Source: Abditibacteriaceae bacterium (GTDB taxonomy: Bacteria > Armatimonadota > Abditibacteriia > Abditibacteriales > Abditibacteriaceae). Taken from it: 64,000 nt of DNA. The stretch is from NCBI GenBank assembly GCA_031372065.1, contig JANMKN010000388.1, forward strand, positions 1-64,000. Direction: 5' to 3'. The notes under the pieces were generated by a model that saw only the letters and a list, made by a program, of their open reading frames with translations, made no database searches and was not told the origin of the DNA. The position numbers and the translations under genes were made by a program. Positions 12,015 to 46,677 of this stretch are shown here, piece by piece (position 1 is the first letter of the stretch; every line of letters starts with the position of its first letter).

Positions 12015-12049
12015 AAAAGCCGCGCTTGAATTTTCAAGCGCGGCTTTTT
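12015..12049. terminator. Intrinsic terminator (bidirectional type) downstream of the 12079-12777 gene
   Basis: aaaagccgcgcttgaa / ttcaagcgcggctttt is a perfect inverted repeat with A/T tails, 30 nt past the stop codon. Confidence 0.85.
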
Positions 12050-12078
12050 GATGGCGTTTCCGGTGAGCGGAGTGCGTT

Positions 12079-12777
12079 TCACGGCTGTGTAGACACGCTT
12101 TTGACGGCGGAATAGTCGCCGATGGCGTTTCTGCCGTCGGAATAGCGAATGCGATATTCGCGCGATTCAGTGCGGCCCGGCGTGAGATTCTGGCGCATAT
12201 CCAAATAGTTCGCGGCAGCGACTTTATCCAGCACGGCCCACTCGGTTTCGGCCCCGCGACGGCCTTCGATAATGACCATAGGCGAACCATCGCGCGTGAA
12301 AGTCAGTTCAACGTAGCCGTTGGGTTGCGCGTCGGCGTCTTTGATGCGCGGCGCGCCTTTGGGCGGTTGGGGAATCGGGTCGAGACGCAGCAATGTTTTC
12401 AAGGCGGGCGTGAGATTGTTCGATTTGAGAATCGTATCGTTCACCAATTCGGCGATGAAGTTGAAAATGCCGCTGTCGGGTGCGCCCGAAGGCGGCGTGG
12501 GCGGCGCGAAAGTCGGCAAAACTGTCGCTTGAGGAGTCGGGTCGCTGTCTAAATCGGTCAGCAACGTCGTGCCGCCTTTGGAAAAGGAGCGCACATAAGG
12601 CAGATAGCGATTGAGCAGGTAGTTATACCAGTCCGCAGCGGACTGGATACGGGTCATGGCGACTGTCGTAACGCCCAAATCAGTCGCAATCGGTGCCAAA
12701 ACTGCCGCGAAGTTGCCGAGCCATTTGCCACGCTCATCGAAGGAGCCGGGCAGATAATTCACATTAACCAGATTCAT
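12079..12777 (-). CDS. Uncharacterised cytoplasmic protein: N-terminal helical domain, Pro-rich linker, C-terminal FN3-like beta-sandwich
   Basis: Strong RBS (AGGAGG, 12784-12789) before GTG/ATG at 12780/12777; no signal peptide; C-terminal VELTF...IEGRRG.E.EW..L....YLD.R.NL..G..E.REYRIRY....GDYS suggests an FN3-like fold by eye. Confidence 0.75.
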   Translation of the reverse strand: MNLVNVNYLPGSFDERGKWLGNFAAVLAPIATDLGVTTVAMTRIQSAADWYNYLLNRYLPYVRSFSKGGTTLLTDLDSDPTPQATVLPTFAPPTPPSGAPDSGIFNFIAELVNDTILKSNNLTPALKTLLRLDPIPQPPKGAPRIKDADAQPNGYVELTFTRDGSPMVIIEGRRGAETEWAVLDKVAAANYLDMRQNLTPGRTESREYRIRYSDGRNAIGDYSAVKSVSTQP

Positions 12778-12799
12778 CACAAACCTCCTGAGACTTGAT

Positions 12800-12830
12800 A
12801 TTATTATCGCGAAAACAATGCGTTTGTCAA
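12800..12830 (-). promoter_or_regulatory. Putative sigma70-type promoter for the 12079-12777 gene
   Basis: Minus strand reads TTGACA-aacgcattgttttcgc-GATAAT (16-nt spacer), about 25 nt upstream of the start codon. Confidence 0.65.
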
Positions 12831-12872
12831 ACGGAATCACGCCTGTTTAGGAGAAAAAAAGGATAGATTTTG

Positions 12873-13110
12873 AAAAAGCTGCCTTAGATTTCGGGAAATC
12901 TACGATAGCTTTTTAGACATCCATCGTAGCTTTCGAGAAATCTAAGATAGCTTTTTGGACATCTAAAGTAGCTTTTTAGACATCTACGATAGCTTTTGCG
13001 ACATCTAAGGCAGCTTTTTAGACATCTACGATGGCTTTTTAGACATCTACGATAGCTTTTTCAGTATCTAAGGCAGCTTTTTGGACATCCGCGACGGATT
13101 TCGAGAAATC
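12873..13110. repeat. 21-bp tandem repeat array A (10 units, 12898-13107) plus an inverted unit at 12873-12889
   Basis: Consensus atctacgatagctttttagac at exact 21-bp spacing; 12873-12889 is the exact reverse complement of atctaaggcagcttttt (13003-13019 and 13066-13082). Confidence 0.95.
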
Positions 13111-14187
13111 TCAGCGCATTCGATAGAGTTTGACGCTATTTTGAGTGCTAACCGCTAAAGTCGAACCATCGGGCGAAAGGGCCATAGCGTAAATACATTG
13201 ATTTACTTTGACTTCGCGTAGGAGTTTGCCTGTTGCTATGTCCCAAATATAAAAGATTATGTCCTTGTGTAAAATTCCCGCCTTTTCATTTTCAAAAGTG
13301 TCGTAAGCAAGTAACCACGGTTTGCTGCCGGAAGATTGTAGCCATCTCATCCAAGGGGTAATCATTGGGTGATGAACCGAGATTTTCAACTTTCCCGTTT
13401 GAGCATCTCGCAATTGACATCCTCCCTTTCCTGAAATAAAGAAAGTGGTGCCATCAGTCGAAAAACTAATTAATTGGTGGGAAGGAGGCAGCAATGAAGC
13501 GGGCAAGAATACATTACGTTTTGCAGCCTGTGCCTCAAAGAGAAGAATACCAATCGAATTTTGATTTCGATCAAGTTTGTCGTCAAGCATAGCTGCTCCA
13601 CTGTTGCCGCTCATTGCCAAATTCCCATCTTCAAATGTTTTGCCTGAAGGCGGCTTTATTTCTGATGTTGTTAGCAAACGTCCTGTAGCTCTATCGAGAG
13701 TGCTAATCATAATGGAATCGCCCTTTTGTTGGCCCTCAATCATTTGTTTTCCATCAGTCGAAATGTTGTAGTTGAAAAATTCGGAGGGGGAAATCGGAAT
13801 GCGCAAGGGCACCGGTTTTTTCTTTTGCAAGTCCCAAATTGTCCAACAATCGCAACCTGATTTAGTGCCTGAATCATGATAGAGCAACGAACCGTTAGGC
13901 AATAAACGAAGACTGCCCGGATCAGCATCTACATTTAGAGAACGCGACAACACCTTTTTGTCGGTATCCCAAAATTGCAATTGATCGTTAATGCTATCCT
14001 CCACCAAAAGCGTTTTGCTGTCGGGCATCCATAGCAATTGATAGATTATCTTGGTGTCGGCAGACAATGGCAGCGTGCGCGGCTGCCAACTACGGCGCTC
14101 GCGGATGACGGCGAAAAGCAGCAGCGGAATAAGCAAAAGGACGGCTATTCCCGCGCGGCGTTTGGTGAGGCGAAAGCGATTCATCAC
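13111..14187 (-). CDS. Membrane-anchored WD40/beta-propeller protein
   Basis: N-terminal TM; LQFWDT, TIWDL, FSTDG, LRDAQTGK, IWDIATGKLLR and LSPDGSTLAV propeller motifs. Confidence 0.8.
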   Translation of the reverse strand: MMNRFRLTKRRAGIAVLLLIPLLLFAVIRERRSWQPRTLPLSADTKIIYQLLWMPDSKTLLVEDSINDQLQFWDTDKKVLSRSLNVDADPGSLRLLPNGSLLYHDSGTKSGCDCWTIWDLQKKKPVPLRIPISPSEFFNYNISTDGKQMIEGQQKGDSIMISTLDRATGRLLTTSEIKPPSGKTFEDGNLAMSGNSGAAMLDDKLDRNQNSIGILLFEAQAAKRNVFLPASLLPPSHQLISFSTDGTTFFISGKGGCQLRDAQTGKLKISVHHPMITPWMRWLQSSGSKPWLLAYDTFENEKAGILHKDIIFYIWDIATGKLLREVKVNQCIYAMALSPDGSTLAVSTQNSVKLYRMR

Positions 14188-30792: not shown

Positions 30793-31065
30793 AGAAAACG
30801 TCATTTCCTGACTTGAAGATGCCATTCCTTGACGTGAAGATGCTATTTCTCCATCTGAAGATGGCATTTCGCGACCTGAAGATGGCATTTCGCGACCTGA
30901 AGATGCCATTTCGCGACCTGAAGATGCCATTTCCCGATCTGAAGATGGCATTTCTTCATCTGAAGATGCCATTCTGGTAATTGAAGATGGCATTCCTCAA
31001 TCTGAAGACGGTATCCGCTGGCGGCAAAAAGCCGTTTCAAGTCAGCGGATACCGTCTTCAGATTG
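30793..31065. repeat. 21-bp tandem repeat array B (about 11 units, 30793-31023) ending in a 23-bp perfect inverted repeat
   Basis: Consensus tgaagatg(g/c)catt plus a variable 8 nt; 30998-31020 pairs exactly with 31043-31065. Confidence 0.95.
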
Positions 31066-43899: not shown

Positions 43900-45083
43900 A
43901 ATGGTTTTATCTGAGTCTTTTAGGATTACTTGCCAGCATAGCATCCGCTCAGGTGGCGCCTAATCCATCAAAGGAAGTGCCACTTGATGCTCCTCATTTT
44001 GCCCCTATAAATGACGACGAGCTAAAGCATTTTATTGGCGAGCCAACACGGATTAGTTTGCATCTGAAAGAAGCGACATCGCAGGCAGCCTTTGAAGCGA
44101 TAGCGCGTCAGGCGGGGCTAAAAATGGGTAATGGTTCGACTTTCAATTCGACAGCGCCCCTTACCGTTGATTACGATAGCCTGCCTTTCTGGAAAGCAGT
44201 CGCGCAAACCCCCTTAAAAATGGCCTTTATGCGCTTTGCGCGGCTTGATGAAACAAGTTTTGATGGGCCACAGGCTGACCACGGTTATTTCGATGTTGGC
44301 CGTAGTTTTTCGGTTCATGAACTGGCGACAATTTTTGTCTCGCGGATTGACCATTTGCATACGCAGGCCGTTGGTGAAGTTACGGACATAAGTGAACCCA
44401 AACGCACCATTTGGCTGACAGGTTGTATTGGGCTTGATCCAAAACTTCCGACTTTGCAGTCAGCCATTACTGTGGAATTAAGCGAAGCTGTTGACGAACA
44501 AGGCCAATCGCTACTTTTTAATGCGCCACGCAGGTTTCTAACTTCGTATCCTGCTACGGGTAGAACTGAATTCGTCGTGCCGCTTGATTATCCACCGAAT
44601 GTTGGCAAGCGTATCGCTCGACTTAAAGGCACTTTGAAATTTCCTATCGTCTTGAAAACCGAAAAATGGAATGTGCCCGATGTTTATGCGCCTGATATTT
44701 TCAATACTGTGCAAGGGCAAAATGGCCCGGAGACGTATCGCGTGATGGCCGAAAAACCAAAGACCCAAAAAAATGGCGCCTATGAATTTATGCGGGCGCA
44801 ACCCTTGAAAATTGCGATTGAACGCCCGCTCAAGGCGCCGCCCGGCATCGCCAAGTGGAACGCTTCAATTTTTGCGCCCTTGTTTCATACTCTTGAAGGA
44901 AAACAATTTTCTCCACAACTGCCACTACAGATGGCTGGTAATGTTCTTGAAGTCTCGGCTCACAGGTCTTATCGTTCTTCTATTTATGCTGGTGTGGAAT
45001 TGAAGGCATTTAGTTTGGATATTCCACTCGAAGTGCGGGAAGCGCAGATTGCTTTTGAGTTGACGGATTTGCCCTTGCCGTAA
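43896..45083 (+). CDS. Exported uncharacterised protein, tandem paralog 3
   Basis: ATGA-coupled to paralog 2; GEPTRISLHLKE, PFW, DPK, AVDEQGQSL, KRIARLKG and IAFELTDLPLP. Confidence 0.82.
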   Translation: MKWFYLSLLGLLASIASAQVAPNPSKEVPLDAPHFAPINDDELKHFIGEPTRISLHLKEATSQAAFEAIARQAGLKMGNGSTFNSTAPLTVDYDSLPFWKAVAQTPLKMAFMRFARLDETSFDGPQADHGYFDVGRSFSVHELATIFVSRIDHLHTQAVGEVTDISEPKRTIWLTGCIGLDPKLPTLQSAITVELSEAVDEQGQSLLFNAPRRFLTSYPATGRTEFVVPLDYPPNVGKRIARLKGTLKFPIVLKTEKWNVPDVYAPDIFNTVQGQNGPETYRVMAEKPKTQKNGAYEFMRAQPLKIAIERPLKAPPGIAKWNASIFAPLFHTLEGKQFSPQLPLQMAGNVLEVSAHRSYRSSIYAGVELKAFSLDIPLEVREAQIAFELTDLPLP

Positions 45084-45144
45084 ATAGACTGCTTGCAAAA
45101 GCGCCCAAAGGCGAGGCCAAGCGCTTCGTTGCAAGTCGCACCAC

Positions 45145-45427
45145 GAAATCGCTGTCGGACGCCCAGAAAACGCGTCTCTCCGTATAGAAAACGCTGTCGG
45201 ATGAGCGGAAAACGCGTCTCGACGCTCGGAAAACGATGCTTGACGCTCGGAAAACGATGCTCGACGCTCGGAAAACGATGCTCGACGTGCAGAAATTGAT
45301 GCCGGATGAGCAGAAAACGATGCTGGACGAGCAGAAATTGATGCCGGATATGCAGAAAATGGTGCTGGACGTGCAGAAAACGATGTCGGACGTTGTGAAA
45401 ATGATGCTGGATGCGCAGAAAACGATA
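45145..45427. repeat. 21-bp tandem repeat array C (13 full units plus a partial one)
   Basis: Consensus gaaaacgatgctggacg(a/t)gca; gaaa recurs exactly every 21 bp from 45145 to 45418. Confidence 0.95.
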
Positions 45428-45439
45428 AAAATCTTCGCT

Positions 45440-46573
45440 ATGTCACTAAAAAAACGCGTTTTTATGGTTCTGATATGGTTTGCGATGTGTTCTCTACATT
45501 TGTCCGCCCAACCGCCCGCAACACCTTTGAAGATTGGCCCATTGGATTCCGCCGATTTGGAAGCACTTTTGGGCGGGCCAACGCGCATTAATCTACATTT
45601 GCGCAACGCCACACCGCAGGAAGTGATAGATAAAATCGCGCAGCAGGCTGGTTTGAAGTCATCGTCCAATTATCCGACGCAGCGGTCTGAAAACAATCAG
45701 CCTGTTTCTTTGAATATTGACCAATTGCCGTTTTGCGAAGCCGTCGGTTTGGCCTGCCAAAAACTGCGTCGCACCATGTTTCCGACTCCTGAGGGCGCTT
45801 TTACTTTGTATGCACAAGACGCCAGTTATGGAAGCGGGCGCTATGCTCCAGTCGGCAACATGGTGGGAATTATTATCAATCGCACGGCGCGGTCACACTC
45901 ACAACGAATGGCAGACAATGAAACGCCAAAACATCAAGCGTCCTATTCTGTTTCGGGTGCTGTTTTTCTTGACCCGAAAGTGCGACTGCTGCACCGATAC
46001 GTTTCTATTCGCTTGACGCAAGCCGACGACGAGAAAGGCAATGATCTGCGGGGTTCTGATGTCTCGCGCAGCTTTGCATATATGCAAAGCGCGAATAATT
46101 TGCGCTGGGATTTTCGTTACTCGCCCAATATGGGGCATCGCTTGGAAACTGTGCGAGGATGGGTGCGTTTTCCGGTTGTGTTGCAATCGGTGCCGTGGGA
46201 AATCAGCGATTTTAAAAAACCGGAACAGGAAAAAATTGTGCGCGCTCCTGACGCAGTTTTGACGTTTCGTTTGGAAGAAGTCGAACAGAATCAACGCGAA
46301 ATGAAATTTCATTTTCTCGTCAAAAGTTCTGTGGGCAAGGTGGCAGCCATAGAAGCATGGCGCGAATCGCCCGACGGATATGATTATTTTCAGTTGCTTA
46401 ATGAAAAAGGCGAAAAAATCACTGGGCCGCGTATGGATTTGGATAAGGATAAAATGTTATTGACTTACTATTATCCGTCGAATCAAACTCCGACGAAGTT
46501 AGTCATGCAACTGCCAACCGACGTTCGCACCGTAGAAATTCCCTTTAAAATCAAGGATTTGCCGCTGCCATAA
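45440..46573 (+). CDS. Exported uncharacterised protein, tandem paralog 4
   Basis: Signal peptide begins MSLKKRV at 45440 (the ORF-track extension to 45236 is repeat array C); GGPTRINLHLRN, DPK, ADDEKGNDL and IPFKIKDLPLP. Confidence 0.8.
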   Translation: MSLKKRVFMVLIWFAMCSLHLSAQPPATPLKIGPLDSADLEALLGGPTRINLHLRNATPQEVIDKIAQQAGLKSSSNYPTQRSENNQPVSLNIDQLPFCEAVGLACQKLRRTMFPTPEGAFTLYAQDASYGSGRYAPVGNMVGIIINRTARSHSQRMADNETPKHQASYSVSGAVFLDPKVRLLHRYVSIRLTQADDEKGNDLRGSDVSRSFAYMQSANNLRWDFRYSPNMGHRLETVRGWVRFPVVLQSVPWEISDFKKPEQEKIVRAPDAVLTFRLEEVEQNQREMKFHFLVKSSVGKVAAIEAWRESPDGYDYFQLLNEKGEKITGPRMDLDKDKMLLTYYYPSNQTPTKLVMQLPTDVRTVEIPFKIKDLPLP

Positions 46574-46677
46574 TTGATGCCAGTGAGTAGGAATCCGTTT
46601 ACACTGAAAAAACCTCCTGTTTAGTGACACGAACCGCGTTTGAATTGTCCAAAGAATTCATGCCAAAAGGATTGAAT

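What the first reader, a model, noticed from the sequence alone, without database searches (positions are those of the whole stretch)
12015..13110. Stand-alone helical plus FN3-like gene directly beside 21-bp array A: candidate partner protein
Seen: a self-contained unit of array A, a TTGACA/GATAAT promoter, an AGGAGG RBS, a 232-aa ORF without signal peptide, and a strong terminator. It sits between unrelated genes (glcD and WD40). The protein has an amphipathic N-terminus (YLP.S.DERGKWLGNFA..L......LG), a Pro-rich linker and a basic/aromatic beta-sandwich C-terminus (REYRIRY). My unverified recollection is that similar hypothetical proteins occur in several phyla and often lie next to heptad-like repeats. 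Inference: gene and array form a functional or mobile module, and arrays B and C may be orphan copies.
Basis: partly seen in the sequence, partly recalled or inferred. Interest (0 to 1): 0.8.

Follow-up and report, generated by a model that had tools for sequence, protein, structure and literature searches.

The report
DNA array paired with helix-FN3 gene
A small gene of no known family sits next to a repeat array spaced every two DNA turns, both here and in almost all its relatives, and its protein, predicted to be a dimer, likely coats that array as a repeating filament, a gene-plus-DNA module not found in my literature searches.

Summary
Confirmed. The 232-aa gene (12079-12777, minus), RBS, promoter match and a 12-unit 21-bp array are real. 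The pairing is not chance: 8 of 8 assessable paralogues have an upstream array (4.2% background), as do 66 of 69 relatives in other genomes (1 of 63 downstream). The unit sequence turns over fast while the period stays at 20-22 or 40-42 bp; units are often dyads and show no coding signal. The protein is a predicted C2 dimer: an unmatched helical domain plus FN3. The genome holds 302 arrays and about 78 such genes; congeners nearly lack both. Arrays B and C are orphans, but not of A; the terminator belongs to the host locus. New here: in Verrucomicrobiota the gene gains a Trp-rich arm and a downstream collagen-fibre gene (41 of 42), and one HU/DUF4469-like gene shares arm, array and fibre. Best reading (0.45): the dimer coats its array as a phased nucleoprotein filament displaying Ig domains. 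Binding is untested; most members are acidic. This scan noted the gene-array pair before on other DNA; nine paper searches found no description.

The parts
12079..12777 (-). 232-aa gene (P0001), no Pfam, NCBIfam, PHROG or PADLOC family; member of a family of 2697 clusters at 50% identity
12370..12777 (-). Residues 1-136: helical domain (H13-30, H38-78, H104-116, H124-129), no clear fold match; predicted antiparallel dimer interface
12082..12363 (-). Residues 139-232: FN3 beta-sandwich
   Evidence: Z 12.4, rmsd 2.1, 88 aligned
12784..12789 (-). AGGAGG ribosome-binding site
   Evidence: direct
12803..12830 (-). Sigma-70-type promoter match TTGACA-16-GATAAT, about 30 bp from the last array unit
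12861..13112 (.). Array A: 12 units of 21 bp, each an imperfect 8-2-8 dyad plus 3 bp (4-8 of 8 arm positions match); the last unit is inverted in register
12015..12049 (.). Bidirectional terminator-like hairpin; host backbone, conserved in a congener that lacks the module, and multi-copy
13111..14187 (-). WD40 propeller gene whose stop abuts the array; its 3' end recurs before arrays at C184 and C116
30802..31065 (.). Array B (21 bp) plus a 23-bp-arm hairpin that includes its last unit; orphan of the F9 subfamily's array type, after a hemB-like gene
45145..45426 (.). Array C (21 bp); orphan, in a cluster of 4 with no known gene; lies in a 2.7-kb stretch absent from two congeners

Best explanation
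The gene and the 21-bp array form one conserved module, in which the array likely serves as a helically phased landing strip that the predicted protein dimer would coat cooperatively, about one dimer per two DNA turns, to build a nucleoprotein filament with its FN3 domains likely pointing outward. Shown: the linkage, the fixed period with free sequence, the lack of coding signal, the FN3 fold match. Predicted: C2 dimer through the long helix. Inferred: DNA binding, filament assembly, and display of Ig domains (and of collagen fibres through the Trp arm in Verrucomicrobiota). Orphan arrays would be dispersed copies or relics of such strips.
For: Linkage: 8 of 8 assessable paralogues against 190 of 4496 genes; 66 of 69 upstream, 1 of 63 downstream, 0 of 58 far controls. 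Periods 21, 42, 41, 20, 22 in 205, 43, 36, 15, 3 of 302 arrays fit 2 or 4 B-DNA turns, not codons. Dyad symmetry in 106 of 246 arrays at p<=0.05 (about 12 expected), with two conserved half-sites about one turn apart. Homodimer score 0.86 against best control 0.00; runs agree in at least 86% of contacts, pLDDT at least 86; that mark was reached by 20 of 30 solved dimers and 1 of 23 single chains. The promoter match lies on either side of the array, which fits an assembly site better than a fixed operator. Where two gene-linked arrays cluster, their proteins are of one subfamily (5 of 5). One Trp-arm gene with a weak DUF4469 match and an HU-like N-terminus (my recalled reading) has the same array-plus-fibre layout.
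Against: No known DNA-binding fold matched the helical domain. P0001 is acidic (pI 5.6; family median 6.3) and has lost several basic residues conserved in relatives. Array A's own dyad test gives only p=0.09, and B and C are not dyads by it. Arrays change while proteins are still 80-90% identical (7% of such pairs keep a similar unit), and no specificity residue emerged. Some fibre genes follow an array with no such gene between them, and 245 of 302 arrays here have no gene. 15 of 59 wider-family genes with room lack a detected array.
Confidence: 0.45

Rival explanations
1. The array is a cis-regulatory platform read by a host factor or by DNA shape. It controls a structural helix-FN3 protein (an appendage or inclusion subunit) that does not itself bind DNA.
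For: Acidic proteins. Fibre-gene coupling points to a structural role. Arrays also precede fibre genes directly. Promoter matches lie near the arrays.
Against: One host reader would hardly accept about 150 different array sequence groups in one genome (154 clusters). The promoter side varies, and subfamily F4 has its arrays downstream (5 of 7 by TRF).
Confidence: 0.25
2. A REPIN/RAYT-like selfish system: each gene helps copy its own array type to new intergenic sites.
For: 40 of 57 gene-linked arrays have orphan kin. Orphans favour convergent gaps, 43 of 170 against 305 of 1764, p=0.012. The site of array B holds other dispersed repeats in congeners. Congeners nearly lack both genes and arrays. 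Inverted end units occur in 36 of 151 arrays.
Against: No catalytic motif or nuclease/transposase family. No recurring enzyme neighbour. G145 has about 8 genes but 0 arrays in 400 kb. Orphans reshuffle unit order rather than copy it.
Confidence: 0.15
3. The array works as RNA (a repeated hairpin scaffold or leader) bound by the protein.
For: At C201/C247 a promoter match lies upstream of the array. Array A folds at z=-5.9.
Against: At this locus the promoter match is downstream of the array. Arm mismatches break unit hairpins. A dyad repeat folds well by construction. No Rfam family. A period of 20-21 fits B-DNA better than A-form RNA (own knowledge).
Confidence: 0.1
4. The array encodes a heptad peptide partner or is an eroded coiled-coil gene.
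For: Slight excess of open frames (2.56 against 2.21; 2.53 against 2.37 with a stricter null). Open frames run through the arrays at C201 and C247. Gene callers fuse heptads to some homologues.
Against: 54 of 302 arrays have periods not divisible by 3. No codon-position signal. No excess heptad moment. Four TAA stops lie in array A's heptad-like frame. The fused heptads share no sequence.
Confidence: 0.04
5. Chance adjacency in a repeat-rich genome.
For: 302 arrays in 6.14 Mb.
Against: 8 of 8 against 4.2%; 66 of 69 against 1 of 63 and 0 of 58.
Confidence: 0.01

Closest known systems
ParR/parC segrosomes (R1, pB171, pSK41, pCW3; PMC9426499, passages read)
   Same: A repeat array upstream of the genes, with sequence and spacing that differ between families; dimers bind it cooperatively into a higher-order filament; pSK41 ParR binds 20-bp repeats; many cognate pairs can coexist in one cell.
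   Different: No ParM/ParA partner gene, no ribbon-helix-helix match, chromosomal rather than plasmid-borne, about 78 genes per genome, Ig domain and fibre accessory.
REPIN/RAYT (PMC3116915, abstract read)
   Same: One gene per repeat family, with dispersed extragenic copies; inverted units; patchy between lineages.
   Different: No tyrosine transposase; tandem arrays with a fixed 21-bp phase instead of REP doublets; the unit order is reshuffled between copies.
Plasmid iteron origins with Rep proteins (recalled, not read)
   Same: Repeats at about 21-22 bp spacing beside their cognate gene and promoter.
   Different: No winged-helix Rep match; many units are dyads; no replicon context.
HU-like/DUF4469 genes with 22-bp dyad arrays (scan note e1-4202334; one case seen here)
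   Same: Dimer-type N-domain plus Ig-like C-domain beside a phased array; in the case seen, also a Trp arm and a fibre gene.
   Different: Different N-terminal domain; the Pfam match is below cut-off; in the case seen the array lies downstream of the gene.
Fibronectin type III domains
   Same: Fold of residues 139-232.
   Different: Apparently cytoplasmic, below Pfam detection, fused to an unmatched helical domain.

Membership tests
FN3 fold | FN3 beta-sandwich fold | tested here: met
   VIA Z 12.4, rmsd 2.1, 88 aligned; top 50 rows are FN3-containing chains; Foldseek E 4e-5
Pfam fn3 (PF00041) | Sequence match to the profile | tested here: not met
   0 of 140 aligned members match
ParR/parC (ParMRC) | Repeat array upstream of the genes | tested here: met
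ParR/parC (ParMRC) | Adjacent ParM/ParA NTPase gene | tested here: not met
   No recurring NTPase neighbour among 57 gene-linked arrays or 80 loci (judged by clustering and inspection); neighbours here are FAD-oxidase and WD40
ParR/parC (ParMRC) | Ribbon-helix-helix DNA-binding fold | tested here: inconclusive
   Not among the listed matches; best Z 5.4; the model has no N-terminal strand
ParR/parC (ParMRC) | Specific cooperative binding to the cognate array | not testable with these tools
   Needs EMSA or ChIP
REPIN/RAYT | HUH (Y1) transposase gene | tested here: not met
   No Pfam/NCBIfam match; the fold is helical plus FN3
REPIN/RAYT | Dispersed extragenic copies related to the gene-linked repeat | tested here: met
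   40 of 57 gene-linked arrays have orphan kin; for array A only a collapsed remnant at C116
CRISPR-type array | Constant repeat with unique spacers | tested here: not met
   Contiguous degenerate units without spacers; no Rfam match
Heptad coiled-coil gene | Open frame with codon-position signal | tested here: not met
Filamentous virus or phage coat | Fold or sequence match to a virion protein; viral context | tested here: inconclusive
   No match at E<=0.001 in BFVD or PHROGs; none in phage or viral collections

The most novel reading that the evidence does not exclude
These modules are minimal DNA-coating particles. The array nucleates a filament of helical dimers around its own DNA, and Ig domains and Trp-arm-anchored collagen fibres decorate it like a virion. 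The coated segment moves between loci or cells, which would explain why one genome holds about 78 diverse modules and 245 orphan arrays while congeners hold almost none. This would be a new class of enzyme-free mobile or gene-transfer element.
Probability: 0.13. Interest if true: 0.95.

Novelty: categorically new. Interest (0 to 1): 0.78.

Why it matters
A family of thousands of uncharacterised proteins in several phyla gains a near-obligatory DNA partner, which makes its function testable with one binding assay. If the dimer reads a 21-bp grid whose sequence can be rewritten, it is a new DNA-binding fold and a natural set of orthogonal protein-array pairs. The fibre link suggests a displayed structure. 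It also accounts for a whole class of dispersed repeats (0.85% of this genome) and warns that gene callers fuse these arrays into false heptad N-termini.

Tried and rejected
Family searches: no match for P0001 in Pfam, NCBIfam, PHROGs, PADLOC or PDB sequences. Of 13 representatives of the other subfamilies, only a PQLLE-family match just under cut-off. The helical domain alone gave no clear match in PDB, BFVD or the Atlas; this does not prove a new fold. No relatives in plasmids, phages or viral contigs (the fibre gene likewise, 122-123), nor close relatives in metagenome contigs. No RNA holder was listed. No Rfam family (only a tRNA). 'One gene-linked array per cluster' was not significant (p=0.13). 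The search for specificity residues gave nothing interpretable. Homology to P0001 is supported only for F7 (83-96%) and, through F7, F5; the other ten subfamilies are grouped by context and helical character only. C116 and C276 ends did not visibly overlap. The script for dN/dS of the C201/C247 leader, a promoter census and a relic-gene test did not run. Paper searches that found no description: (two were for comparators). PMC3184786 and PMC3372372 (passages only) do not describe it. No supplements were read; subscription journals are not covered.

Full report
Observation. The ORF, RBS, promoter match, hairpin and array are all at the stated place. Array A has 12 units of 21 bp in exact register (13112-12861). 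Each unit can be written as an 8-2-8 dyad plus 3 bp, with 4 to 8 of 8 arm positions matching, and the last unit is inverted in register. Its column-shuffle dyad test gives only p=0.09. The dyad pattern with one mismatch occurs 11 times in the genome, all within array A.

Is the pairing chance? The genome (6.14 Mb, 410 contigs) carries 302 merged arrays of this period class, so a control was needed. 190 of 4496 crude genes (4.2%) have one within 300 bp upstream. All 7 tblastn paralogues have one 91-204 bp upstream. A profile adds two more: one with a 22-bp array, one at a contig start, giving 8 of 8 assessable. Of 80 loci from other genomes, 11 lacked room; 66 of 69 have an array upstream, 1 of 63 downstream and 0 of 58 far upstream. 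Most of these are Verrucomicrobiota and so not independent, but records titled Pyrinomonadaceae, Bacteroidia, Lentisphaerae and Gallionella also pass. In the window's phylum 9 of 151 genomes match. Four of five full-length matches there have arrays; the fifth is cut by a transposase-like ORF (recalled likeness).

The array. Period is kept and sequence is not. Periods are 21, 42, 41, 20 and 22 in 205, 43, 36, 15 and 3 arrays. Unit similarity falls from r 0.89 at 97% or more protein identity to about 0.5 at 70-90% and 0.29 below 40% (74 loci). Dyads are enriched: 106 of 246 at p<=0.05 and 74 at p<=0.01. Conservation peaks at two half-sites about a turn apart. There is no codon-position signal and no heptad moment; a small excess of open frames shrinks under a stricter null. 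Inverted units sit at the ends of 36 of 151 arrays against 3 of 1374 swapped flanks, though such units end a TRF array by construction. Some relatives switch polarity mid-array. The promoter match is gene-proximal here but lies upstream of the array at C201/C247.

The protein. The family has 2697 representatives at E<=0.001 and no library name. The model (pLDDT 95.8) has an FN3 C-domain and a helical N-domain with no clear match. A homodimer through the long helix scores 0.86 against a best control of 0.00. Runs agree in at least 86% of contacts, with pLDDT at least 86; 20 of 30 solved dimers and 1 of 23 single chains reached this mark. This supports dimerisation but does not show it. Against DNA binding: pI is 5.6, and the conserved FN3 arginines may be structural (own knowledge).

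The wider system. Looking at genes beside arrays gave 13 subfamilies of long-helix proteins, about 78 genes, with or without FN3. 44 of 59 with room pass the array test against 5.1% background. This count is partly circular, since the seeds of F2-F13 were picked by adjacency. Only F7, and F5 through it, are shown to be homologous to P0001. 57 arrays are gene-linked and 245 are orphans; 40 of the 57 have orphan kin; 76 orphans cluster with a gene-linked array, 102 without one, and 67 stand alone. Orphans lean to convergent gaps (p=0.012). B belongs with two F9 arrays; C belongs to a group with no known gene. Congeners G152 and G151 (79% and 85% complete) gave no family-size match and G003 gave two. 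Samples held 0 arrays in 400 kb (G152) and 1 in 333 kb (G003), against 49 per Mb here. Against a simple rule, G145 has about 8 genes and 0 arrays in a 400-kb sample.

Boundaries. G152 keeps the glcD-like gene, the hairpin and the CHAT gene, but has a different gene in the slot. Across 14 paralogue pairs, shared DNA generally stops at or shortly before the stop codon. In close pairs it extends through promoter and array, and in two pairs 300-400 bp further. C116 holds a deleted WD40 copy, a collapsed remnant of array A and a newer array beside it. No enzyme gene recurs beside the modules, and none was found on plasmids or phages.

An accessory gene. Among 58 loci with room, 41 of 42 genes with an N-terminal Trp-rich arm have a downstream collagen/fibre-like gene. 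Of 16 scored as armless, 10 lack it, and the 6 that have it are truncated or carry variant arms (kin not independent). The fibre matches Pfam Collagen near cut-off and PHROG tail fibres mainly through its collagen. It is absent from this genome and four relatives, and multi-copy in five Verrucomicrobiota genomes. I examined five fibre loci in G162 that have no P0001-family gene adjacent. Four have a 21-, 22- or 41-bp array. In one of the two whose ORFs I listed, the fibre gene follows the array directly. In the other, a Trp-arm gene with a sub-threshold DUF4469 match and an HU-like N-terminus (recalled) precedes array and fibre. The same arm, array and fibre with a swapped, probably DNA-binding N-domain is the best indirect argument that the helical domain binds the array.

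Mechanism and verdict. Most likely (0.45) the dimer coats its array as a phased filament and displays Ig domains and fibres. It would work like a ParR/parC segrosome (PMC9426499, passages) without being one. Rivals: a host-read regulatory array (0.25), a REPIN-like copier (0.15; PMC3116915, abstract), an RNA scaffold (0.10), a peptide (0.04), chance (0.01). Eight earlier scan notes report the gene-array pair on other DNA. Word look-ups found none on the fibre link or the orphan structure. No paper describes it in my searches. Interest 0.78; categorically new, with the mechanism unproven.

Noticed in passing
L029-L105, e.g. L029:3706-4053: Collagen/phage-fibre-like gene with no apparent signal peptide and conserved N- and C-terminal anchors, tightly coupled to a Trp-rich arm on the upstream gene; 17-41 profile matches per genome in five Verrucomicrobiota.
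   Followed up: partly
L257:220-1972: Trp-arm gene with an HU-like N-terminus (recalled) and a weak DUF4469 match, then a 22-bp array, then a fibre gene.
   Followed up: partly
L005:2221-2520 and L006:3270-3600: About 300 bp upstream of the arrays, 82% identical between two paralogues, starting at a strong promoter match; an open frame runs from it through each array.
   Followed up: partly
L149:1350-2092 (G000:C116): Internally deleted WD40 gene, collapsed remnant of array A and a newer, related 21-bp array at a contig end.
   Followed up: partly
G000:C43, C69, C234, C239, C382 (subfamily F4): All-helical 150-190 aa genes whose arrays lie downstream, not upstream.
   Followed up: partly
window 30998-31065: Perfect 23-bp inverted repeat that includes array B's last unit; also follows the related array at C351.
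   Followed up: no
L126:2470-2870 and L124 (congeners, around hemB): Other dispersed elements: long inverted repeats built from 7-15 bp tandem units; in G003 one fills the slot that array B holds here.
   Followed up: no
window 43904-46625: 2.7-kb stretch of tandem paralogous genes with array C between them, absent at this site in G152 and G151.
   Followed up: partly
window 12015-12049: The hairpin belongs to a small multi-copy palindrome family also present in relatives.
   Followed up: partly
P0038, P0049, P0113, P0079: Database proteins whose N-termini are the upstream array read in frame, probably gene-calling artefacts.
   Followed up: no
L122:2529-4516 (G003:C114): The congener's only P0001 relative is cut at its 5' end by a transposase-like ORF, with a short 21-bp repeat remnant beyond.
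   Followed up: no
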